Virus record (IMG/VR): IMGVR_UViG_3300034095_001474
Location: 128,001-192,000 of that record
Length of the DNA stretch: 64,000 nucleotides
Reading direction: 5' to 3' (one strand)
DNA from: a virus
Taxonomy: Duplodnaviria > Caudoviricetes
Positions 17,592 through 34,498 of the stretch are shown piece by piece; position 1 is the stretch's first letter, and every line of letters starts with the position of its first letter. The notes under the pieces are model-generated. The model was not told where the DNA came from, searched no databases, and saw only the letters and a program-made list of their open reading frames with translations. A program made the translations under genes and the position numbers.

Positions 17592-19058
17592 TTATTTAAA
17601 CGTCTCTAAATTATCTATAAAATAATCTTTTAACCCTCTAAATGCAGAGAAACTTCTTTGTGAAGCTGAATATAATTTAGAATTAAAATTAGCTAATATG
17701 TTACTTTTAGTATCTAGTAATGATTGCTTCTTTTTCCCTAAATCAGCATTAGGGTTAACTTTTTTTATAAGATTTAAAATTTGCGTTAGTAATAAGTCTT
17801 CATCAACGTTATCCCAATCAAAAGCGATTGACAAACCTTTATTAGGGTCATTAGACCAACCTATATCAGCATCTTCTAACCCTTCAATAGCATCAATTAA
17901 ACTTTTATCATCAACATTTTCATAAATACCCATAATAGGACCTTCATTTACAGCATTACTTTTTGGTAATGATGCTTCTATAAACTCTGAAAATTCACCT
18001 TGATTTAAGCCACTAGGTACAGCGTTTTTGTTTATGTATGAAAACTTTTTATTATCACCATCAATATTCATAGTACAATTTATGTAAAAAATATTATCTA
18101 AATTAAAGTTTTTAAATTCATACAGACTTTCCATATTCCAAATCTCTCTAGCCGCTTCTTGATTTGCCATATCAGCTAATCTTTTAGGCATTCCACTTTC
18201 TTTAGATTTAGAGTTAGCAAAAATAAAGTTAGCTTCTTCTGGTGTTAATTCTGCGATATCACCTTCAAAATTTATAAAAAATTTAGATTTATGTGACTTA
18301 ACACCACCCTTGGCGTAGAAATCAATCATAGTGTTTTTAGTCCCTTGGTGTTGTTTAAATGGAGTCATAGGAATTCTTTCATATCCAAGTCCTCTCATGT
18401 CATCTGTAGCTATAGAACCTTCTTCACCACTGATACCATGTTTATCCCTTAATGCTGTAATTTCAGCATCTCTATCCGCTTTAGTTTTTACGTTATTCCA
18501 TTGTATAGTAAAACTTTTAGTAGAATAAACTTTAGATGGTATTGTGATGTCTTCCTTAGTTTCACTATCTTTATATTTTCTACCAGCATATGGATTGGTG
18601 TAAGTTGCTTTTCCAGGGCTTTTTGATTTTAATCCTCTAGCTGCTCTTTCTTGGTCTACTGCGTATTTGTTTTTAACTGCACTCCATTCTTCAGAACCAA
18701 CCATACTATCTAAATACCTTTTTAGTTTTGGGTTATCTAATTTGGCTGCAATCCCTTCAAATTCAGCTAAATTTTCTGGATTAATATTAACTGGTAATGA
18801 AGATGAACTAACATTATTAACATAACCAACTGTCATGAACCAACTATTATTTGGTTTGTATTTAGAAAACATTTTAAGTAATGTATCAACATTATCTGTT
18901 ACATCACCAAAAAATTCAGACATTGACGTTCTATCGGATTCATATAAATCTGATTCATCAATCATATTTTCTGTTATAAAACCTTTCGATTGTAAATACC
19001 TTTGTTCAGCTAACAAATTAGCTTTTTTTAAGTTTTTTGTTTTATCAATTCTTCTCAT
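17592..19058 (-). CDS. Hypothetical protein (possible head-internal protein)
   Basis: 488-aa ORF; N-terminus NLKKANLLAEQRYL...ITE. Confidence 0.7.
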   Translation of the reverse strand: MRRIDKTKNLKKANLLAEQRYLQSKGFITENMIDESDLYESDRTSMSEFFGDVTDNVDTLLKMFSKYKPNNSWFMTVGYVNNVSSSSLPVNINPENLAEFEGIAAKLDNPKLKRYLDSMVGSEEWSAVKNKYAVDQERAARGLKSKSPGKATYTNPYAGRKYKDSETKEDITIPSKVYSTKSFTIQWNNVKTKADRDAEITALRDKHGISGEEGSIATDDMRGLGYERIPMTPFKQHQGTKNTMIDFYAKGGVKSHKSKFFINFEGDIAELTPEEANFIFANSKSKESGMPKRLADMANQEAAREIWNMESLYEFKNFNLDNIFYINCTMNIDGDNKKFSYINKNAVPSGLNQGEFSEFIEASLPKSNAVNEGPIMGIYENVDDKSLIDAIEGLEDADIGWSNDPNKGLSIAFDWDNVDEDLLLTQILNLIKKVNPNADLGKKKQSLLDTKSNILANFNSKLYSASQRSFSAFRGLKDYFIDNLETFK

Positions 19059-19091: not shown

Positions 19092-19535
19092 TTAAAAAAT
19101 CTCTGCTGTTATATAAGTAGTTGTAGTTTCAAAAAGTATTTCTCTTCGCTTTAACCAGTCCCCTATATTGTTAAGTGTTTTTAATTGTATACCCCAAATA
19201 TAATCAACTTGAAGTGTCTTTGGGTACTCTTTTAATTTGTTTCCCCAACCTTGCCCTCTGATTTCTTTATCAACAACCAACAACACACCTTCAATACCTT
19301 TTAACCCATCATATTTTTCGTTTGACCAGAATGAATATAATTGATTATTACCCAAAAGATACAACCCTTTTATTTTATCTTCGTCATCCAATATGATTGC
19401 TGATATATCCCAATTGGTTTCCTCTTCTATAATTGTAAAAAAATATTTTTTGTAGATAACATGTTTAAAATATTGAAAAGACCATTGCATGGCTTCTAAT
19501 CTCATTTCTTGTGGAATTCCGTATCTAATGTTCAT
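19092..19535 (-). CDS. GNAT-like acetyltransferase
   Basis: LLVVDKEIRGQGWGNKL acetyl-CoA binding motif. Confidence 0.6.
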   Translation of the reverse strand: MNIRYGIPQEMRLEAMQWSFQYFKHVIYKKYFFTIIEEETNWDISAIILDDEDKIKGLYLLGNNQLYSFWSNEKYDGLKGIEGVLLVVDKEIRGQGWGNKLKEYPKTLQVDYIWGIQLKTLNNIGDWLKRREILFETTTTYITAEIF

Positions 19536-20019
19536 AACCAGTAATTTCAAAAAATTGATAATCTCTTACTTTCCAAATTGAATCTAATTGTTGTATTGAA
19601 TATTTTATCTCACCCAACCATGGGTCTAAAACATTAAAAACATTTTCATCATACCCATTAACAATTATCCAGTGAGGAACACCTTTTGTTATTGTTCTAA
19701 GCATTGATACATTTCCACTATCTATGATTGTTCTTAGTAAATCATATGGGTGTGGCGATGATATGTATTCAATATAATTAAAATTTAATTTTTCCATACC
19801 TTTTTCCATTCTATCTGGTGGTGTACCTACAATCCAATCAGTACCACAAAAATGTGCGATATCTCTTATATCGTACTTCATTTCTATAAAACCATCAGAA
19901 TCTTTACACGTTCTGTAAATTATATTGTCTTTGTTCACCAAATAAAACCACACCATATAAATACATGTTGGTCCACATGTATTCCCAGTAGGTTGATAGA
20001 AATGTTTAATAGTTGTCAT
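19525..20019 (-). CDS. Peptidase C39-like cysteine protease
   Basis: YQPTGNTCGPTC (Q/C), PHWIIV (H), VLDPW (D). Confidence 0.75.
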   Translation of the reverse strand: MTTIKHFYQPTGNTCGPTCIYMVWFYLVNKDNIIYRTCKDSDGFIEMKYDIRDIAHFCGTDWIVGTPPDRMEKGMEKLNFNYIEYISSPHPYDLLRTIIDSGNVSMLRTITKGVPHWIIVNGYDENVFNVLDPWLGEIKYSIQQLDSIWKVRDYQFFEITGYEH

Positions 20020-20383
20020 TGAAGTCTTCGTCATAATAAGGTGAATCATCTTCATCGTCTTCTTCCTCATCAAAGTCATCATCTTCCTCACCAACGACAT
20101 TTTCCAATGTATCAAACCCTATAAAAACTCCAAATTCATCATTGAATAGTTTTTTAAATGTTTTTGCTTCATCATTTGTGATTTCATTAAAATCAATCTT
20201 AGATAATAAATCTTCACCACTAGAAAACTCCAACTCATCTTCACCCATATTGTGTGTAAATGGCCATGTGATGCTCAACGCTAATTCTTCGTATTCTTCG
20301 ACTTCTCTTTCTGTCATTACGATAAATCCGTTCACTTCAATCTCATCGATTGTGTCATTAAAAATTGCTAAAAATTTTGCCAT
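20006..20383 (-). CDS. Hypothetical acidic protein
   Basis: 125 aa with an Asp/Glu-rich tail. Confidence 0.6.
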   Translation of the reverse strand: MAKFLAIFNDTIDEIEVNGFIVMTEREVEEYEELALSITWPFTHNMGEDELEFSSGEDLLSKIDFNEITNDEAKTFKKLFNDEFGVFIGFDTLENVVGEEDDDFDEEEDDEDDSPYYDEDFNDNY

Positions 20384-20436: not shown

Positions 20437-21552
20437 TTATAAAAGTTTTTTAAAGTTCTCTATTTCTAACTCAACAATTTTGTCACCCAATTCTTTGCTT
20501 GGTTTCAAATTGAACTCTTTCATTACTTCTTCACCACTAACTGTAAGTTCAAAGTCTTCCAACGCATTTAACAAATTTCCAGAAATCATATTACGAATTC
20601 CAAAGTTAAATAACTGTTCACTAGATATGTCACTTTTAATCAACGATTTTTTCAACGTAACAGCAGTATCTATTTGTTCAATAGTGTGCAGCGTTAATAA
20701 AAAACTTATTTTATTTATATCTGATGTTGGATGAGTCAATTTATTCAACTTTGTTGTTATAAAAGATAAATCATTATCTTTTAACAATGTAGCCAACACA
20801 AGTATTGGGTCTTTTTCATCAATAAAGTTTTTGTTAATAACCATGTTTGGGAATATCCAATCAAACAAATTAAACGTATCCAACAACTCCATAAACTTGA
20901 TTACAGATTTAGCTGATTTCAAACCTTTGATGAACTCATCTCTGATTCTTTCAGCTGATATACCTTCCAAGCTGCTATCTAGAATAAGTGTAAGTATTAT
21001 ATCTTTGGATAAAACACCATCAAATCTACTTACAAATCTTATCGCTCTAAGAATACGTAACCTATCTTCTTCAAATCTTTCAGCAGCATCACCAACAGTT
21101 CGTATTATACCCTTTTTAAGGTCTTCAACACCACCAACCATATCAACTATTTCAGATGTATCTAAATCAAAAAATAATGCATTAATCGTTAAATCTCGTC
21201 TCAATACGTCACCTTCTATTGTTGTAAATTTAACGCTGTCTGGTCTACGACCATCTGAACCAATATCCTCACGAAAAGTTGCAATTTCGAATTCATCTGT
21301 ATCTGTAAATACGTTGATAACACCGAAAGCTTTCCCAGTAGCAAGTGTTCTAAGACCAGCTTCTTCCATCATCGATTCAACCTTATCTGGAATAGCATCA
21401 GTAGCTAAATCCCAATCTTTTGGGACTTTTCCTAACAATGCATCACGTATGCTGCCACCAACGATAAATAATTTAAAACCGTTATCACTAAAGATACGGT
21501 GTATAATTTTAATATCGTTTGGTACTTCTAGTTCAAATTTTATTCTTTCCAT
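20437..21552 (-). CDS. cca: CCA-adding tRNA nucleotidyltransferase (class II)
   Basis: VGGSIRD...KDWDLAT, EIATFR, RRDLTINAL, EDRLRILRAIRF. A poly(A) polymerase assignment cannot be fully excluded. Confidence 0.85.
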   Translation of the reverse strand: MERIKFELEVPNDIKIIHRIFSDNGFKLFIVGGSIRDALLGKVPKDWDLATDAIPDKVESMMEEAGLRTLATGKAFGVINVFTDTDEFEIATFREDIGSDGRRPDSVKFTTIEGDVLRRDLTINALFFDLDTSEIVDMVGGVEDLKKGIIRTVGDAAERFEEDRLRILRAIRFVSRFDGVLSKDIILTLILDSSLEGISAERIRDEFIKGLKSAKSVIKFMELLDTFNLFDWIFPNMVINKNFIDEKDPILVLATLLKDNDLSFITTKLNKLTHPTSDINKISFLLTLHTIEQIDTAVTLKKSLIKSDISSEQLFNFGIRNMISGNLLNALEDFELTVSGEEVMKEFNLKPSKELGDKIVELEIENFKKLL

Positions 21553-21631: not shown

Positions 21632-22048
21632 TTAGGCTACTTCAACTACTTCTAAATCGAAGATTAAGTCTTTACCAGCCAATGGGTGATTAGCATCCAA
21701 AACAACAGTGTTTTCTTTTATCTCTGCAACTACAACCATCATTTGACCTTGTGGTCCTTCAGCTGTTAATTGATGTCCAACTTCAACACCTTCTGGTACA
21801 AATTGTTTTTCCACTTCTTGAGTCATTTCTTCTCTGATTGGACCATAAGCTTCATCAGATGGAATAGTGATTGTTCTTTTCTCACCAGCTTTTAAACCTT
21901 GTAATCCTTTTTCAAATCCAGGGATTAATAAACCTTTCCCTAATTCAACCGCTAATGGGTCTCTACCTTCTGATGTGTCAAAAACTGTGTTGTCTTCTAA
22001 TCTTCCAGTGTAATGTACTTTAACATTACTGTTTTCTGTTACTGTCAT
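21632..22048 (-). CDS. slyD: FKBP-type peptidyl-prolyl isomerase (SlyD-like)
   Basis: VKVHYTGRL...FDTS...LIPGFEKGL...AYG...DANHPLAGKDLIFDLEVV. Confidence 0.93.
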   Translation of the reverse strand: MTVTENSNVKVHYTGRLEDNTVFDTSEGRDPLAVELGKGLLIPGFEKGLQGLKAGEKRTITIPSDEAYGPIREEMTQEVEKQFVPEGVEVGHQLTAEGPQGQMMVVVAEIKENTVVLDANHPLAGKDLIFDLEVVEVA

Positions 22049-22629: not shown

Positions 22630-22974
22630 TTAGTTATTGTTATTTTTACCCAATAGAGGACACGAACTAGTAATTTTTTTACTAGCATCAGATGGTTCAA
22701 AAGCTATTGCGGTAATTTCGTTATTGATGTCTGGCTCTCGGAATATAGTATATTTAATTCCTCTGATTGCAGCTTTCTCTGAGAGTTTATATAACTCTTC
22801 CTCATTTGCTACTGTTAATAATGCCAAATAATTTGATTTTGTTTGCCATTCTGACGCTTCTTTAGGATGAGCGTGCTGAAAATCAATGGCAGCATGTGCT
22901 GATTGCACTGCTTGTGTTGGTAATGATAAGTCACGTCTTGTGACAACTCTTAATTTTGAAATCTAATTTTTCAT
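22630..22974 (-). CDS. Pth2-like peptidyl-tRNA hydrolase with an in-frame TAG at codon 4
   Basis: ATG AAA AAT TAG ATT TCA ... gives MKN*ISKLRVVTRRDLSLPTQAVQSAHA...W...L..V.....L......FREPDINNEITAIA. The conserved first strand lies upstream of the annotated GTG start at 22908. Confidence 0.75.
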
Positions 22975-23024
22975 TTTCTTTTTTATATAAATATATCACT
23001 TTTTTTAAAAAGGTAAACCTTTTG

Positions 23025-23095
23025 TGGTCTTAGAGGGAATCGAACCCTCACTATCGGTTTTAGAGACCGTTACGCTGCCGTTACATCATAAGACC
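23025..23095 (-). tRNA. Amber-suppressor tRNA (anticodon CTA)
   Basis: GGTCTTA/TAAGACC acceptor with A73; ACGGT CT-CTA-AA ACCGA arm; GAGGG TTCGATT CCCTC T arm. Confidence 0.9.
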
Positions 23096-23107
23096 AAATC
23101 TATAGTG

Positions 23108-23138
23108 CAAATATACTAAAGATTTTTTAATTTGTCAA
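23108..23138 (-). promoter_or_regulatory. Bacteroidota-type promoter of the tRNA-CUA gene
   Basis: TTG-N20-TATATTTG. Confidence 0.72.
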
Positions 23139-23999: not shown

Positions 24000-24257
24000 T
24001 TAATCCCATTCTTCAAATGTCTGTTCTCTATTTTCGATTACACAAAGTAACCCTTTCAATATGTCGCAGTGATAAGTAATAAAGTTACCTTCAATATTCA
24101 TAACTGTGTTAACACCTAAAGCTGTGAAAAACTTTTCATTGTCAATATCATATTTTTCTAAGATAGCCATTATCTCACTACCCATGAATCCTTGTACATA
24201 TTTAGTTGGGTAATCATAAACAAATTCCTCAACATTTTCACTAGTTAATTTTTCCAT
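24000..24257 (-). CDS. Hypothetical protein
   Basis: 85-aa ORF with its own TTG-N20-TACATTTG promoter at 24262-24292. Confidence 0.6.
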   Translation of the reverse strand: MEKLTSENVEEFVYDYPTKYVQGFMGSEIMAILEKYDIDNEKFFTALGVNTVMNIEGNFITYHCDILKGLLCVIENREQTFEEWD

Positions 24258-24301
24258 ATTACAAATGTACTAAAAGTTTTTCGATTATACAAATTTTTAC
24301 A

Positions 24302-24334
24302 TAAAAAAAAAAGCCCATCATATGATGAGCTTTT
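24302..24334 (-). terminator. Intrinsic terminator closing the ncRNA cluster
   Basis: AAAAGCTCATCATATGATGGGC followed by poly-T. Confidence 0.8.
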
Positions 24335-24340
24335 AATAAT

Positions 24341-24424
24341 GTCAGAATAGTTTTGGGAATTGAACCCTTTCATCTAAATTTATGCAAATTTTAATTTAAC
24401 CTTAGTTTTGCTGAAACTATCCTT
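24341..24424 (-). ncRNA. Y-RNA (Yrl)-like RNA A with a tRNA T-arm
   Basis: 5' AGGATAGTTT pairs with 3' AAACTATTCT; TCAGCAA follows the 5' strand; GGG-TTCAATT-CCC T-arm. Confidence 0.6.
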
Positions 24425-24430
24425 TCTTTG

Positions 24431-24501
24431 TAGCGTAGCGTGGAGTCGAACCACCCTTCAAGGTTATGAGCCTCATGTGCAACCACTTACACCATAACGC
24501 A
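24431..24501 (-). tRNA. tRNA-Met(CAT), mismatched acceptor stem (initiator-like or degenerate)
   Basis: TGAGG CT-CAT-AA CCTTG arm and TTCGACT T-loop; unpaired 1:72 and further acceptor-stem mismatches. Confidence 0.65.
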
Positions 24502-24506
24502 ATATG

Positions 24507-24584
24507 TGCCCTAGACTGGCTACGAACCAATTATCCCATAGATACCTTTCGATACCCATCTGATAAAGTCTAAACTTCTAGGAC
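24507..24584 (-). ncRNA. tRNA-like RNA with a GAAA tetraloop in place of an anticodon loop
   Basis: 8-bp acceptor GTCCTAGA/TCTAGGGC plus A; TTGG-TTCGTAG-CCAG T arm; central ATGGGTATC-GAAA-GGTATCTAT hairpin. Confidence 0.55.
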
Positions 24585-24588
24585 ATTG

Positions 24589-24659
24589 TTGGCCAAAATC
24601 TGTTTTTTTTTTCTTTTAAGTATAGATAGTTTTAATTGCTGAAAAGATTTTTTTGCCAA
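24589..24659 (-). ncRNA. Y-RNA-like RNA B (minimal)
   Basis: TTGGC...AAAATCT pairs with AGATTTT...GCCAA; TTTCAGCAA follows the 5' strand. Confidence 0.5.
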
Positions 24660-24670
24660 TATTGTTATCA

Positions 24671-24923
24671 CAAGATGATTGTTTGCTTTTTTCATCCCAG
24701 CGGATTAACCCATTTTACGTCTTCGGCTTTGCTTTGGCGAGAGTCTACTGTTGTTCGACTACATCCTACTTGCACCTTTTGGGGTGGTCTGACGTTGACT
24801 TTTGTTTTCATTGGAAGTCTTACCATGTTATCTATATCCGTTGTTTGACAATGTTTTCACATTCTCTCACATACCATTTAGATTCTATCATAGTTTGTAT
24901 TTTTTGGTTGCAGAACCCATCTT
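24671..24923 (-). ncRNA. Y-RNA-like RNA C (about 250 nt)
   Basis: 5' AAGATGGGTTCTGCAACCAAAAAA; the 3' end ATCATCTTG closes the stem. GC-richer non-coding interior, with promoter (24974-25004) and boxA (24946-24956) upstream. Confidence 0.55.
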
Positions 24924-25027
24924 TCTTGATAATATTTTTAATAAATTAAAGAACGTTTTGAAATAAATATATACAAATGTACGAACACTTTATTGTTTTG
25001 TCAACTAAAACATCAATTATTTTTAAT

Positions 25028-25273
25028 TTATTTTATAACTGATTGATTCTTAGTTGCTTCTAATACGTTTTTTTGAGAGAACTCTTCAACAATAATTAGT
25101 ATCTGATGTTTTATAGTGAGATTATGTACCACGTTTAATACTTGGTAATACATATCATTAATATAAATGTATTCGTCTTTTCTTGGGATAACTTTAAAAA
25201 TTACACCATTTTTTATTACGGACCATTTACTATCTAGTAGTGTTGTTATATATTTTGTCTTGAACATAAGCAA
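25028..25273 (-). CDS. Hypothetical protein
   Basis: 81-aa ORF with an upstream TATATTTG motif. Confidence 0.55.
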   Translation of the reverse strand: MLMFKTKYITTLLDSKWSVIKNGVIFKVIPRKDEYIYINDMYYQVLNVVHNLTIKHQILIIVEEFSQKNVLEATKNQSVIK

Positions 25274-30928: not shown

Positions 30929-31040
30929 TCGTCTTTCTTTAAATATAATGTTATGTATTAAATAATAAACAATAGTATCGATTTTTTTTCATAGTGTAAA
31001 CACTAAAAACAAAAAAACCCCACAATTGTGAGGCTTTTTA

Positions 31041-31217
31041 ATGACTTGTTACAAGATACGGGGGCATTTACTTCAAACCCAGTTAAGAAGTTTTCCAATT
31101 TTATAAAAATAGAGGTTTTGGGAACCTACGTGGAATCTTTCGATTCACTTTCCATGTATATAATTGTTTTTTTTAAGTTTTTTGGTTGCAGAATGCATCT
31201 TTTAAAAAACAAGTCAT
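31041..31217 (-). ncRNA. Y-RNA-like RNA D, directly downstream of the TROVE/DUF2828 gene
   Basis: Outer 10-bp stem ATGACTTGTT/AACAAGTCAT; 5' AAGATGCATTCTGCAACCAAAAAA pairs with 3' GTATCTTG; terminators on both sides (31013-31037 and 31219-31256). Confidence 0.6.
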
Positions 31218-31262
31218 AAAAAAGAGGGATGGGTCATTTAACCATACATCCCTCTTAATATT

Positions 31263-32690
31263 TTAAATAGTTACTGGTGCGTAACGCTCAGAGTCAATAA
31301 CACTCAACATCATAGATATTGGAGTCATGTCTTTACCAGCTAATAAATTAGTAAGCAATGCTGGAGAGAAACCAGATACCAACGCAGTACCTTCTTTATC
31401 AAATTGTACTGGTTTGTTATTATCTCCTCTTGATTGGATGTTCCAATATACTAACTTAGGCATTGTGTACCCAGCTTGAGTATAAAGAGACTCAACCATA
31501 TCTTGAGCAGTCCACCCACGAACACTACCACAATTGAATTCCATGTCTGACAACATAAGAATCATTGTTGGCATTTCTTCTGGTGCAACATTTGACTCAA
31601 CAGCTTTGTTTAAAAGCATTCTAAACGCTTTTTCAACATTAGTATCATATCCAACTGGCCCTTGAATTTGTCTGTATCTCTCAGACAAACTACCTTTAAG
31701 GTATTGTAATGTTGGGTTAGATGTAAACGTAATGAATGCATCTTTGAAAGGACCTTCGTTTCTTTCTGAAATGTATAACCCCAAAGAGATTGCTACATCC
31801 ATACAAGTTACGTTAGCGTTGTTCCCAGCTGGAGTACCCATTGACCCAGAAACATCCACCATTGGTAAAAGTCTCTCGTTGTTACCTTCCATGTAGTTAG
31901 GCAACGCATCCCATTGTACGTTAGCACCTTTGGTGTTACCAGTTTTCATGTTTTTAACGATGTCGTATGGATATACTGCACCAGCATTTATTTTAGCCTC
32001 ACCTTTCTCAACACTTGTCAAGTAAGCTTGGAAACGCTCTAAATCATTTTTAGAGAATGCTTTCATCAAATCACTCATTGCTTTTGATGGCAATTTAGAG
32101 TATTCAATTTTAGTCCACTCTTTTGAACACATTAATTGCTCAACAGTGTTAGAGTTTTCAACCAATAACTTACGGTAATCTTTTGGTGTTAACCCTAAGT
32201 ATTTTCTAAGAGCAGAAGCTTGTCTTTTCTTGTCACGGTTACCAACGTTTGGACGTGGCATCCATTTAGCACAAAGACCGTTTTTATCTTCCAACCCTTT
32301 AGCGATGTAACCCAACGCTGCGTTTTCTAATGGTGTACCAACCAAAACCAAAAGGTCATCCCATCTACCGTACTCAGCAAATAAACCTAAGTTTTTCGCA
32401 AGAGATTCAGTACGATTCTCAGACAAGTAAGTAACGATATCTCTAAAGATTTGTCTCTCACCAGCACCACCTCTTACGTCACGAGCCCAGAATAATAAAC
32501 GCATAGCATTTAAAGGATTCTCAGAATAAGCTTTTGTAAACGCATTGATAAGACGAGTCTTATCTTGACCTCTCATCGCACCAATTTGGAAGAACAAGTC
32601 AACACAAAGGTTTAAAGATGAAGAGTTAGTTACCATTCCGTTTTCAGTTAACGAATTTTTTGTTTGCATAGCTTTTAATAATGTACTCAT
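31263..32690 (-). CDS. DUF2828-type TROVE/Ro60-like protein with a vWA domain
   Basis: TENG...NSSS...VDLFFQIG, ARDVRGGAGER, EYGRWDDL, AKWMPR, YPYDIV, VDVSGSM (MIDAS), LSDMEF, VYWN, VSGFS. Confidence 0.85.
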   Translation of the reverse strand: MSTLLKAMQTKNSLTENGMVTNSSSLNLCVDLFFQIGAMRGQDKTRLINAFTKAYSENPLNAMRLLFWARDVRGGAGERQIFRDIVTYLSENRTESLAKNLGLFAEYGRWDDLLVLVGTPLENAALGYIAKGLEDKNGLCAKWMPRPNVGNRDKKRQASALRKYLGLTPKDYRKLLVENSNTVEQLMCSKEWTKIEYSKLPSKAMSDLMKAFSKNDLERFQAYLTSVEKGEAKINAGAVYPYDIVKNMKTGNTKGANVQWDALPNYMEGNNERLLPMVDVSGSMGTPAGNNANVTCMDVAISLGLYISERNEGPFKDAFITFTSNPTLQYLKGSLSERYRQIQGPVGYDTNVEKAFRMLLNKAVESNVAPEEMPTMILMLSDMEFNCGSVRGWTAQDMVESLYTQAGYTMPKLVYWNIQSRGDNNKPVQFDKEGTALVSGFSPALLTNLLAGKDMTPISMMLSVIDSERYAPVTI

Positions 32691-33874: not shown

Positions 33875-34498
33875 TTAAACAAAGTTTCTCACATATTTTT
33901 TTCTATGATACTTGTTAGCACCATGTTCTTTCAATGCTTCAATATGGTCTGGCGTTAAATACCCCTTGTTTCCACACCAATTATATTGTGGGTATTGTAA
34001 ATGTAGTTTACACATATATTCATCACGTCTTACCTTGGCAACAATAGCTGCTGCTGCAATGCACGTATATGTATCATCACCTTTGGGTACTAGTGTTACT
34101 TCTGGGTCTTGTTCACGTTCATCCCATACTGTTCCATCAACAAGTATGTGTTCTGGGTTAATTGATAATTCATCTAAACACTTATACATAGTATTAAACG
34201 TTGAAGGATTTATACCTATTTCGTTTATTTCGTTTACAGAACCAGCTTGACATGAAATAGCAATAGCATTATCCATTATTAGTTGATATGCTTCGTTTCT
34301 TTGTTTTGGGGATAGTTTTTTGGAATCTCTTATAAGTGGAGATTTGAAACCTTTCGGCATTATTACTGCTGCTGTCACAACTGGCCCAGCACCGCAACCT
34401 CTACCAACTTCATCTAAACCAGCAACCAATTCGTAGTCACCAAAGTCTTCAAGAATTTTCTTCTCTTTTACCATCTTTTCTTTTTTTAAAGTAATCAA
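33875..34498 (-). CDS. rnhB: Ribonuclease HII
   Basis: AGLDEVGRG...GPVV, RDSKKL, LVDG, KGD...IAAAAIVAKV.RD, NKGY.T..H. Confidence 0.95.
   Translation of the reverse strand: MITLKKEKMVKEKKILEDFGDYELVAGLDEVGRGCGAGPVVTAAVIMPKGFKSPLIRDSKKLSPKQRNEAYQLIMDNAIAISCQAGSVNEINEIGINPSTFNTMYKCLDELSINPEHILVDGTVWDEREQDPEVTLVPKGDDTYTCIAAAAIVAKVRRDEYMCKLHLQYPQYNWCGNKGYLTPDHIEALKEHGANKYHRKKYVRNFV

What the first reader, a model, noticed from the sequence alone, without database searches (positions are those of the whole stretch)
24341..24923. Cluster of three Y-RNA-like ncRNAs sharing a stem-TTC(A/T)GCAA signature
Elements A (84 nt, with a T-arm), B (71 nt) and C (about 250 nt) each pair their 5' and 3' ends and carry TTCAGCAA or TTCTGCAA just after the 5' strand. 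They are interleaved with tRNA-like genes in one unit with a promoter, boxA and terminator. Bacterial Y RNAs (YrlA) bind Ro60/Rsr through a terminal stem and mimic tRNA. A size-graded family with a shared handle suggests modular adaptors that tether different effectors to the phage TROVE protein (inference).
Basis: partly seen in the sequence, partly recalled or inferred. Interest (0 to 1): 0.75.

Follow-up and report, generated by a model that had tools for sequence, protein, structure and literature searches.

The report
Partner RNAs of phage Ro60-like protein
A lake-water jumbo phage carries four small RNA genes that share one conserved "handle"; the same handle sits beside the gene for a Ro60-shaped RNA-binding protein in very different phages, so these are most likely that protein's partner RNAs, from a family I found in neither Rfam nor the papers I could search.

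Summary
On the minus strand, a promoter-like site (25004-24974) and a terminator (24334-24300) enclose element C (24931-24666), B (24651-24595), a tRNA-like hairpin, tRNA-Met and A (24423-24344). Each element closes with a terminal stem followed by three bases and C(A/U)GCAA. A fourth element, D (31201-31053), lies directly behind the DUF2828/DUF7788 gene, whose model has the Ro60 fold.

Single-sequence folds and the 8-mer count are not significant. The comparative evidence is.
- A covariance model built only from other phages ranks B first and A joint second in the window.
- In four of five unseeded cultured phages, its best genome-wide hit lies within 50 nt of the DUF2828 gene.
- Five phages without the gene score no higher than 19 bits.
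- The terminal stems covary.
- Metatranscriptome contigs from four studies cover C.

These RNAs are not YrlA or Y RNA members. There is no Rfam hit, and the GNCGAA motif is absent. Short members look like Dictyostelium Class I RNAs, but score below that family's threshold.

Binding to the protein is inferred, not shown.

This scan has noted the same family before on other DNA (227 notes, 154 genomes). I found no published description.

The parts
24974..25004 (-). Promoter-like site: TTGACA (25004-24999), then TACATT(TG) (24981-24974)
   Evidence: Consensus scan. CTTGACA ... TAGTAC(A/C)TTTG is kept in relatives upstream of element C. Function not tested.
24946..24959 (-). Conserved leader AAAACGTTCTTTAA (boxA-like)
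   Evidence: Kept, with small changes, in all 7 relatives between the promoter and element C. Identity as boxA not tested.
24666..24931 (-). Element C. Outer helix 24931-24927 with 24670-24666; inner terminal helix 24923-24917 with 24678-24672; handle GUU-CUGCAA 24916-24908; variable region; almost invariant core of about 109 nt at 24795-24687
   Evidence: 15 distinct homologues collected by sequence. Terminal helix 97.6% paired, with double changes at 4 of 7 pairs. The divergent homologues L060 and L048 carry the canonical GUA-CAGCAA. RNA-library contigs from 4 studies cover 24639-24933. No Rfam hit.
24595..24651 (-). Element B: 7-bp terminal stem AAAAUCU/AGAUUUU, UUU-CAGCAA-UUAAAAC, A/U-rich loop
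   Evidence: Top hit of model R1 in the whole window, 28.0 bits, E about 1e-4. Orthologues have AGAAUCU/AGAUUCU, so the window carries a compensatory G-C to A-U change. Best Rfam match is Dicty_Class_I_RNA at 25.6 bits, below the 41.5 cut-off.
24502..24575 (-). tRNA-like hairpin RNA without an anticodon loop. It belongs to the same transcription unit but has no handle
   Evidence: Fold z-score -2.71. Homologues in L001 and weakly in others. Subject of a separate note (e1-5365196).
24430..24501 (-). tRNA-Met(CAT)
   Evidence: ARAGORN. Rfam tRNA 27.2 bits, below the cut-off of 29. Homologues in many relatives.
24344..24423 (-). Element A: terminal stem AGGAUAG(UUU)/(AAA)CUAUUCU, CAGCAA at 24413-24408, T-loop-like hairpin at 24367-24355
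   Evidence: R1 18.4 bits, joint second in the window but at the noise ceiling. Its orthologue in L003 scores 24.4 bits. Orthologues keep the stem (U-A to A-U at pair 8) and the T-like hairpin (GGG/CCC versus GUGG/CCAC).
24300..24334 (-). Intrinsic terminator of the RNA operon
   Evidence: 11-bp stem followed by a run of U.
31053..31201 (-). Element D: terminal stem AAGAUGC/GUAUCUU, AUU-CUGCAA-CCAAAAAA. It lies between the terminator of the DUF2828 gene and its own terminator
   Evidence: Shares an exact 16-mer and the AAAGATG...ATCTTG closing stem with C. Orthologues lie behind the DUF2828 gene in L064-L067, one of them with CAGCAA. Pair 6 is G-U, G-C or A-U.
31263..32690 (-). DUF2828/DUF7788 gene: Ro60-like HEAT-repeat ring plus vWA domain; the presumed protein partner
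   Evidence: Pfam PF11443 and PF25043. AF2 model with pLDDT 78. Best full-length structural matches are Ro60 of Thermus phage phiLo, Xenopus, Deinococcus and human. Syntenic in 5 of 5 related contigs.

Best explanation
Elements A, B, C and D are discrete, structured non-coding RNAs of a widespread phage RNA family.

The family is defined by a handle: a 6-8-bp terminal stem that usually opens with AG and closes with CU, followed by G; then two or three unpaired bases; then C(A/U)GCAA.

The handle is most likely the binding site for the phage's Ro60-like DUF2828/DUF7788 ring protein. This would parallel the way the terminal stem and 5'-strand motif of Y RNAs bind Ro60.

The part between the motif and the 3' strand differs between members:
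- a short A/U-rich loop in B;
- a T-arm-like hairpin in A;
- a 150-nt insert in D;
- a 250-nt insert with an almost invariant 109-nt core in C.
This variable part would give each particle its own partner or substrate.

A, B and C are made from one transcript together with tRNAs and are probably released by the tRNA-processing enzymes.

Shown: the RNAs' conservation and covariation, the Ro60 fold of the protein model, and the genomic coupling of handle and gene across phages.
Inferred: binding, processing, and the role of the variable modules. That role is probably RNA quality control, repair, or counter-defence during infection.
For: Protein:
- The DUF2828/DUF7788 model matches Ro60 structures over about 500 aligned columns. 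Thermus phage phiLo Ro60 (9kop, 9l5y) gives TM about 0.6 and E 4e-9; Xenopus, Deinococcus and human Ro60 also match.

Family and coupling to the gene:
- Model R1 was built from 15 handle RNAs of other phages, none from this window.
- In the window it ranks B first (28.0 bits) and A joint second (18.4 bits) among 128,000 positions.
- In unseeded genomes its best hits are: 18 nt after the gene in a Staphylococcus phage (three in tandem, 29-45 bits); 43 nt before it in Enterococcus EF1 (38 bits); 20 nt before it in Campylobacter CP81 (27 bits, two copies); 38 nt before it in Fusobacterium Fnu1 (23.8 bits). All are on the gene's strand.
- In Cronobacter S13 the hits lie between tRNA genes.
- T4, T5, phiKZ, SPO1 and Calle_1 have no DUF2828 homologue and no hit above 19.1 bits.
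- In 37 related lake-phage loci, all 27 hits at E<=0.01 are on the operon strand, upstream of the syntenic 187-aa gene.
- All 5 related contigs tested carry the gene.

Structure:
- Element C homologues were collected by sequence, not by stem. Their terminal helix is 97.6% paired, with double changes at 4 of 7 pairs. Slid controls pair at 36-46%.
- B, A and D orthologues also show compensatory changes.
- C and D orthologues alternate between CUGCAA and the canonical CAGCAA.

Expression:
- Contigs in four freshwater RNA libraries from four studies cover element C. One is identical to the window and ends at 24932, next to the outer helix.

Context:
- The neighbourhood holds a tRNA array, tmRNA and a CCA-adding-type nucleotidyltransferase.
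- The homologous protein gp130 of phage Bas63 counters the ppl defence system. Its authors only guessed that neighbouring 'tRNA genes' might be Y RNAs.
Against: - No experiment shows binding.
- The handle differs from the Ro60-binding motif of known Y RNAs (GNCGAAN0-1G, or GGUCCGA). Neither Y_RNA nor YrlA is hit in the window at E<=10.
- A, B and C lie 6.3 kb from the gene, not beside it.
- A scores at the noise ceiling of R1.
- C and D are not found by R1. Their inserts are long and they use the CUGCAA variant, with U rather than A before the C. A simple matrix-plus-stem scan does not separate them from background.
- The seeds of R1 were chosen by a scanner that required a stem. Their 100% pairing is therefore circular and counts for nothing.
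- RNA-library contigs cannot prove transcription or ends, and DNA can be present in such libraries.
- In some phages the RNAs sit in the 5' leader of the gene, which would also fit a cis-regulatory role.
Confidence: 0.7

Rival explanations
1. The elements are tRNA-derived decoys or substrates that act without the DUF2828 protein. They might soak up host tRNA-targeting nucleases, or serve the phage's CCA-adding, ligase or tmRNA machinery. The coupling to the gene would then reflect only a shared RNA-repair island.
For: They are embedded in tRNA arrays here and in Felix O1-type and T4-type phages. A has a T-loop-like hairpin. Long members in other phages carry T- and D-arms. A CCA-adding-type enzyme is encoded nearby.
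Against: In Staphylococcus S-CoN_Ph7, Fusobacterium Fnu1 and Listeria LP-048 the handle RNAs abut the DUF2828 gene with no tRNA beside them. The conserved part is the handle, not the tRNA-like part, and most members have no tRNA-like part at all.
Confidence: 0.12
2. The handles are cis-acting signals rather than independent RNAs: autoregulatory leaders of the DUF2828 mRNA, or processing or anti-termination signals for the tRNA operon.
For: In CP81, EF1, Fnu1 and LP-048 they lie between a promoter or tRNAs and the start of the gene. The operon here has a conserved boxA-like leader.
Against: In the window (D), the Staphylococcus phage, Mycobacterium phage Nicholas and Felix O1-type phages they lie downstream of the gene. 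They come in tandem arrays of 3-5 with different inserts. D has its own terminator after the gene's terminator. C is covered by RNA-library contigs while its flanks are not (weak).
Confidence: 0.1
3. They are base-pairing regulatory RNAs. The variable loops would target host or phage mRNAs, and the handle would recruit a chaperone, which might or might not be the DUF2828 protein.
For: A variable, largely unstructured A/U-rich loop sits on a constant scaffold, as proposed for Dictyostelium Class I RNAs.
Against: No target complementarity was sought or found. The large members (C, D and the tRNA mimics) are highly structured and conserved in a way unlike seed regions.
Confidence: 0.05
4. They are decayed tRNA genes or spacers with no function, and the shared motif is a chance or compositional feature.
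For: Single-sequence folds are no better than shuffles. The 8-mer is only about twofold enriched in the window.
Against: The handle is conserved across phages of at least five host phyla. Stems covary. Hits concentrate next to one gene family and are absent from phages without it.
Confidence: 0.03

Closest known systems
Ro60 (Rsr) with Y RNAs: bacterial and phage YrlA/YrlB (Chen et al. 2014, PMC4201824; Rfam RF02553) and Thermus phage phiLo Ro60 with Yrl1/Yrl2 (PMC12135203)
   Same: A ring-shaped HEAT-repeat plus vWA protein (fold match). Small RNAs are encoded beside it, and their 5' and 3' ends form a stem followed by a conserved single-stranded motif. There are several RNAs per genome. In many phages one RNA carries a T-arm / acceptor-like stem / D-arm module in YrlA order. 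The YrlA model gives its best, sub-threshold, hit on such a member in phage Nicholas (37.9 bits).
   Different: The protein belongs to Pfam DUF2828/DUF7788, not TROVE, and has 11-18% identity to Ro60 structures. The RNA motif is N2-3-C(A/U)GCAA rather than GNCGAAN0-1G or CGAA. There is no Rfam Y_RNA or YrlA hit in the window. Members range from 50 to about 266 nt. Here three of the four lie in a tRNA operon 6.3 kb from the gene.
Dictyostelium Class I RNAs (Rfam RF01414; Kjellin et al. 2021, PMC7919456)
   Same: A short 6-7-bp terminal stem that covaries. A conserved motif containing UUACAGCAA follows the 5' strand directly. Then come a variable A/U-rich remainder, conserved (A)AG at the 5' end and CUG(U) at the 3' end, and a length of 42-65 nt. 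The Rfam model, built from amoeba sequences only, puts all seven of its hits of at least 18.5 bits on handle RNAs beside DUF2828 genes in four phage genomes. It is also the best Rfam match of element B.
   Different: All scores (18-26 bits) are below the family cut-off of 41.5. Class I RNAs are nuclear-encoded behind a DUSE promoter, are reported as unique to Dictyostelia, and their only named binder is the RRM protein Rnp1A. I could not establish whether dictyostelids encode a DUF2828 protein.
Bas63 gp130, a Ro60-like protein of a Felix O1-type phage that counters the ppl defence system (PhageMaP preprint, 10.1101/2024.10.10.617714)
   Same: Same protein family, in the same position upstream of the tRNA cluster as in phage finno. 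The authors suspected Y RNAs among the neighbouring tRNA genes.
   Different: No RNAs were identified there. Here and in finno the RNAs lie between the tRNA genes and are not tRNAs. Counter-defence activity is not tested for this phage.

Membership tests
YrlA / Y RNA (Rfam RF02553, RF00019) | Score at or above the Rfam gathering cut-off (69 bits for YrlA) | tested here: not met
   No Y_RNA or YrlA hit at E<=10 in 24200-25100 or 30950-31300, and none at gathering level in the whole window. The best hit on a family member elsewhere is 37.9 bits, in phage Nicholas.
YrlA / Y RNA (Rfam RF02553, RF00019) | Conserved Ro60-contact motif near the 5' end (GNCGAAN0-1G in bacteria, GGUCCGA in animals) | tested here: not met
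   All four elements have N3-C(A/U)GCAA in that place. Motif definition from PMC4201824.
YrlA / Y RNA (Rfam RF02553, RF00019) | The 5' and 3' ends pair into a terminal stem | tested here: met
   Compensatory changes in orthologues of A, B, C and D.
YrlA / Y RNA (Rfam RF02553, RF00019) | Encoded next to a Ro60 (TROVE) orthologue | tested here: inconclusive
   D abuts the DUF2828 gene, and A-C lie 6.3 kb away on the same strand. The protein has the Ro60 fold but is not matched by Pfam TROVE at E<=10.
YrlA / Y RNA (Rfam RF02553, RF00019) | tRNA-like domain with T- and D-arms in at least one RNA per genome | tested here: inconclusive
   In this window only A has a T-loop-like hairpin, and no D-arm was seen. 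Full T/acceptor/D modules occur in family members of finno, Nicholas and S13.
YrlA / Y RNA (Rfam RF02553, RF00019) | Physical binding to the Ro60 protein | not testable with these tools
   Needs RIP or EMSA.
Phage DUF2828-associated CAGCAA-handle RNAs (unpublished family; defined here by model R1) | 6-8-bp terminal stem, 2-3-nt linker, CAGCAA, A/U-rich 3' neighbour, 3' CUG; score above the 19-bit ceiling seen in phages without the gene | tested here: met
   B scores 28.0 bits against a ceiling of 19.1 bits. A scores 18.4 bits in the window, but its L003 orthologue scores 24.4 bits. C and D are not found by R1, because of long inserts and the CUGCAA variant, but their orthologues carry canonical CAGCAA.
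Phage DUF2828-associated CAGCAA-handle RNAs (unpublished family; defined here by model R1) | Same strand as, and close to, a DUF2828/DUF7788 gene or inside the phage's tRNA array | tested here: met
   D lies 62 nt behind the gene, and A-C lie in a tRNA operon on the same strand. The same pattern is seen in nine cultured phages.
Dictyostelium Class I RNA (Rfam RF01414) | Score at or above the gathering cut-off (41.5 bits) | tested here: not met
   Element B scores 25.6 bits. Phage relatives score 18-25 bits.
Dictyostelium Class I RNA (Rfam RF01414) | 6-bp terminal stem, 11-nt motif CCUUACAGCAA next to the 5' strand, and conserved AAG / CUGU ends | tested here: inconclusive
   Stem met. B has UUUCAGCAA, and phage relatives have UUACAGCAAU. 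Ends are AAAA...UUGG in B, AG...CUG(U/G) in relatives.
Dictyostelium Class I RNA (Rfam RF01414) | Dictyostelid nuclear gene behind a DUSE promoter | tested here: not met
   This is a phage operon with a bacterial-type promoter.

The most novel reading that the evidence does not exclude
The phage CAGCAA-handle RNAs and the Class I RNAs of dictyostelid amoebae are the same kind of RNA: ligands of DUF2828-type Ro60-like ring proteins.

If so, the long-unexplained Class I RNAs would be amoebal Y-like RNAs. DUF2828 proteins, which are also common in plants and other eukaryotes, would define a second, undescribed branch of Ro60/Y-RNA particles spanning phages, bacteria and eukaryotes.

A smaller additional possibility: element C is circularised. 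One RNA-library contig joins its 3' end to its 5' end.
Probability: 0.25. Interest if true: 0.9.

Novelty: new variant of a known kind. Interest (0 to 1): 0.78.

Why it matters
Ro60/Y-RNA particles are a classic RNA-surveillance machine and a human autoantigen. Until now their RNA partners have been defined for the TROVE clade only.

DUF2828/DUF7788 proteins occur in at least 711 cultured phage genomes. I found almost no literature on them. One member has just been tied to escape from a bacterial defence system.

A defined RNA handle gives several things:
- a direct handle for biochemistry (EMSA, cryo-EM);
- an explanation for the unannotated gaps in many phage tRNA clusters, and a correction for spurious small ORFs called over them;
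- a concrete, testable hypothesis for the protein partner of Dictyostelium Class I RNAs.

This window adds an unusually large member (C) with an invariant 109-nt core and evidence of presence in environmental RNA libraries. It also shows that the RNAs can be moved from the gene into a separate tRNA operon.

Tried and rejected
- Rfam at gathering and E<=10 thresholds gave no known family for A-D. The weak hits (PyrR, sau-19, Phe/Leu leaders and others) only match the terminators.
- Single-sequence folding gave z-scores that were not significant.
- Counting the 8-mer TTCWGCAA gave only about twofold enrichment.
- A stem-plus-motif scanner gave 43 hits against 7-12 in shuffles. It was useful for finding seeds, but noisy.
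- A position matrix plus a 7-bp stem within 400 nt is not specific in this A/T-rich genome, and C and D do not reach its threshold.
- The pair count on the seed alignment A3 is circular, because the seeds were chosen for having a stem. It is not used as evidence.
- The R1 hit at 17644-17741 (18.4 bits) lies inside the 488-aa ORF 17592-19058 and is taken as a false positive.
- The TTCAGCAA at 36953-36946 lies in a small coding region.
- RNAalifold proposed pairing the GUUCUGC motif with GUAGGAU in C's core. The pairs are mostly G-U, invariant, and broken in L028, so I rejected it.
- I could not learn whether Dictyostelium encodes a DUF2828 protein. Organisms are masked in the AFDB cluster search, Swiss-Prot gave none, Avesson et al. 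2011 is not held, and the Kjellin supplements name only CIBP/Rnp1A.
- RNA-library contigs gave no cover over A, B, the tRNAs or the promoter. Nothing is concluded from that.
- The RNA runs that hold 11-16% of the words were used only after laying. No claim about habitat is made from them.
- A full-text search for the 9-mers returned only unrelated primer and barcode listings.
Full report
**What is there.**
The window comes from a freshwater jumbo phage. No whole genome is held. Close relatives are 100-370-kb viral contigs from lakes. All features below are on the minus strand.

A promoter-like site (TTGACA 25004-24999, TACATT 24981-24976) and an intrinsic terminator (24334-24309) enclose five RNA genes:
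- element C (24931-24666);
- element B (24651-24595);
- a tRNA-like hairpin (24575-24502);
- tRNA-Met(CAT) (24501-24430);
- element A (24423-24344).

TTCTGCAA (C) or TTCAGCAA (A, B) follows the 5' strand of a terminal stem in each element.

The promoter and a leader, AAAACGTTCTTTAA, are kept in relatives. I can call that leader boxA-like but no more.

I confirmed two things. D shares an exact 16-mer and the AAAGATG...ATCTTG closing stem with C. D sits between two terminators.

**Is it more than chance?**
Not on the sequence alone. Fold energies are within shuffles, and the 8-mer occurs 12 times against about 6 expected. The case rests on comparison with other phages.

Homologues of each element exist in related contigs. 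For C I collected 15 distinct homologues by sequence similarity, not by structure.
- The 7-bp terminal helix is paired in 97.6% of cells, with double (compensatory) changes at four of seven pairs. When the partner columns are slid, pairing falls to 36-46%.
- An outer 5-bp helix and two internal hairpins also covary.
- About 109 nt (24795-24687) are almost invariant.

The other elements also keep their stems:
- B's stem is AGAAUCU/AGAUUCU in relatives and AAAAUCU/AGAUUUU here, a G-C to A-U double change.
- A keeps its stem and its T-loop-like hairpin through compensatory changes.
- D's pair 6 is G-U, G-C or A-U.

**The protein.**
The gene product matches Pfam DUF2828 and DUF7788, and not TROVE. 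An AlphaFold2 model (pLDDT 78) finds Ro60 proteins as its best full-length matches:
- in the PDB, Thermus phage phiLo Ro60, Xenopus Ro60, Deinococcus Rsr and human Ro60;
- among Swiss-Prot models, the same proteins plus Tetrahymena p80.

Homologues occur in 711 cultured phage records.

**The link between handle and gene.**
I read the flanks of DUF2828 genes in distant viral contigs (31-93% protein identity). The same design appeared again and again: a stem, two or three bases, then CAGCAA. It also appears in cultured phages:
- four copies between the tRNA genes behind the gene in E. coli phage finno (Felix O1 type);
- three in tandem in front of the gene in Listeria phage LP-048;
- three behind the 'Ro-like' gene of Mycobacterium phage Nicholas;
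- one in Cronobacter phage S13.

In finno, Nicholas and S13, one member carries a T-arm, an acceptor-like stem-loop and a D-arm, in the permuted order described for YrlA.

From 15 short members of these other phages I built covariance model R1. None of its seeds comes from this window. The seeds' perfect pairing is circular, because they were picked by a stem-requiring scanner, so I do not count it as evidence.

Independent tests of R1:
- In the 64-kb window, with filters off, the top hit is element B (28.0 bits). Element A is joint second (18.4 bits). The hit that ties with A lies inside an ORF.
- In five cultured phages that gave no seeds, the best genome-wide hits lie on the gene's strand: 18 nt after the gene (Staphylococcus, three in tandem), and 43, 20 and 38 nt before it (Enterococcus, Campylobacter, Fusobacterium). 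In Vibrio phi-ST2 the best hit is 8.6 kb upstream.
- In Cronobacter S13 two unseeded hits lie between tRNA genes.
- Five phages without a DUF2828 homologue (T4, T5, phiKZ, SPO1, Calle_1; 776 kb in all) give nothing above 19.1 bits.
- In 37 related lake-phage loci, all 27 hits at E<=0.01 are on the operon strand upstream of the syntenic gene. They include A's orthologue at 24.4 bits.
- All five related contigs tested carry the DUF2828 gene.

R1 does not find C or D. Their inserts are long, and this lineage uses CUGCAA with U before the C. Their orthologues nevertheless include canonical forms: GUA-CAGCAA in L060 and L048, CCAGCAA in L028, and UUUCAGCAA in the D orthologue of L066. So they are variants of the same handle.

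**Expression.**
Six freshwater metatranscriptome runs hold part of the region. I laid four, from four studies. Their contigs cover only element C (24639-24933). One contig is identical to the window and ends at 24932, beside the outer helix.

This is weak support for a stable RNA. Contigs show neither ends nor strand, and DNA can be present in such libraries. One contig from a relative joins position 24665, five letters, and position 24933. That could be a circular RNA or a tandem gene copy; I could not decide between them.

**Comparison with known families.**
Rfam has YrlA (RF02553, cut-off 69 bits). It gives nothing in the window. On tRNA-mimic members elsewhere it gives only sub-threshold hits: 37.9 bits in Nicholas and 29.9 bits in L075.

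The Ro60-contact motif of bacterial Y RNAs, GNCGAAN0-1G, and the CGAA motif of phiLo Yrl1/2 are absent. These RNAs therefore work like Y RNAs in architecture and context, but they are not members of that family.

The recurrent best Rfam match of the short members was unexpected: the Dictyostelium Class I RNA model (RF01414). It gives 25.6 bits on element B. In whole-genome scans of four cultured phages, all seven of its hits of at least 18.5 bits fall on handle RNAs beside the DUF2828 gene.

Class I RNAs have a 6-bp terminal stem, an 11-nt motif next to the 5' strand, AAG and CUGU ends, a variable remainder, and no known function. They are reported as unique to Dictyostelia. All my scores are below the family cut-off of 41.5, so this is a resemblance, not membership. 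I could not find out whether dictyostelids have a DUF2828 protein.

**Mechanism.**
Most likely (about 0.7), the Ro60-like ring binds the terminal stem plus the single-stranded C(A/U)GCAA. The variable inserts then give each particle a different partner or substrate.

The operon's RNAs would be released by tRNA-processing enzymes. The genomic setting points to RNA surveillance, repair or counter-defence during infection:
- a tRNA array, tmRNA and ClpP;
- a CCA-adding-type enzyme;
- RtcB near the gene in LP-048;
- the report that Bas63 gp130 counters the ppl defence system.

Binding, processing and effector recruitment are all inferred.

**Novelty.**
I found the family neither in Rfam 15 nor in the papers searched. 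The nearest statement in print is a guess in the PhageMaP preprint that some tRNA genes next to gp130 might be Y RNAs.

This scan has noted the same family many times on other DNA: 227 notes in 154 genomes. Those are unchecked AI notes that agree with my reading but are not independent evidence.

Specific to this window are the CUGCAA / N-U-U handle variant, the very large member C with its invariant core, the placement of three members in a separate tRNA operon, and the metatranscriptome signal.

Noticed in passing
window 24665 / 24933 (element C ends): One metatranscriptome contig (run X15, depth 70, from a relative) joins the 3' end of element C, five letters, and its 5' end ('goes back 269'). 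This could be a circular RNA or a tandem C-like gene pair. None of the 15 homologous loci shows a tandem copy.
   Followed up: partly
L071:1404-2831, L072, L073:2501-3985: DUF2828 homologues in three viral contigs contain one in-frame stop codon each. This could be read-through by a phage suppressor tRNA (compare the amber-suppressor note for this window at 22630-23138), a sequencing error, or a pseudogene.
   Followed up: no
window 24687-24795 (-): About 109 nt inside element C are almost invariant across homologues whose flanking protein is only 64-90% identical. The stretch contains covarying hairpins (for example AUCC-GCUG-GGAU) and has no Rfam match. Its function is unknown.
   Followed up: partly
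window 20437-21552 (-): This ORF has PolyA_pol head and RNA-binding domains (a CCA-adding enzyme or poly(A) polymerase type). It lies between the tRNA arrays and the RNA operon. FKBP (21632-22048), a C39-like peptidase (19525-20115) and RNase HII (33875-34498) are nearby.
   Followed up: partly
window 24974-25004 (-) and relatives: The conserved promoter reads CTTGACA ... TAGTAC(A/C)TTTG. The TAnnTTTG element resembles the -7 box of Bacteroidota promoters (from my own knowledge), which hints at a Bacteroidota host.
   Followed up: no
Staphylococcus phage S-CoN_Ph7 OR354830.1 8789-8878; Campylobacter phage CP81 NC_042112.1 90316-90453: Small 'hypothetical protein' ORFs annotated in these records overlap strong handle-RNA hits (40-45 and 27 bits). 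They are probably mis-annotations.
   Followed up: no
Fusobacterium phage Fnu1 MK554696.1 126160-126397 (+): Three tandem weak R1 hits (16-18 bits) lie far from the DUF2828 gene. They may be a second array of handle RNAs, or noise.
   Followed up: no
window 17644-17741 (-): An R1 hit of 18.4 bits with an AGAAGCAA variant lies inside the 488-aa ORF 17592-19058. It is probably a false positive, and it shows that R1's noise ceiling is about 19 bits.
   Followed up: partly
L081 (E. coli phage finno) 5470-5820 and 5885-6135: Long unannotated gaps in the Felix O1-type tRNA cluster have weak partial tmRNA-model hits (14-20 bits). They may hold further structured RNAs.
   Followed up: no
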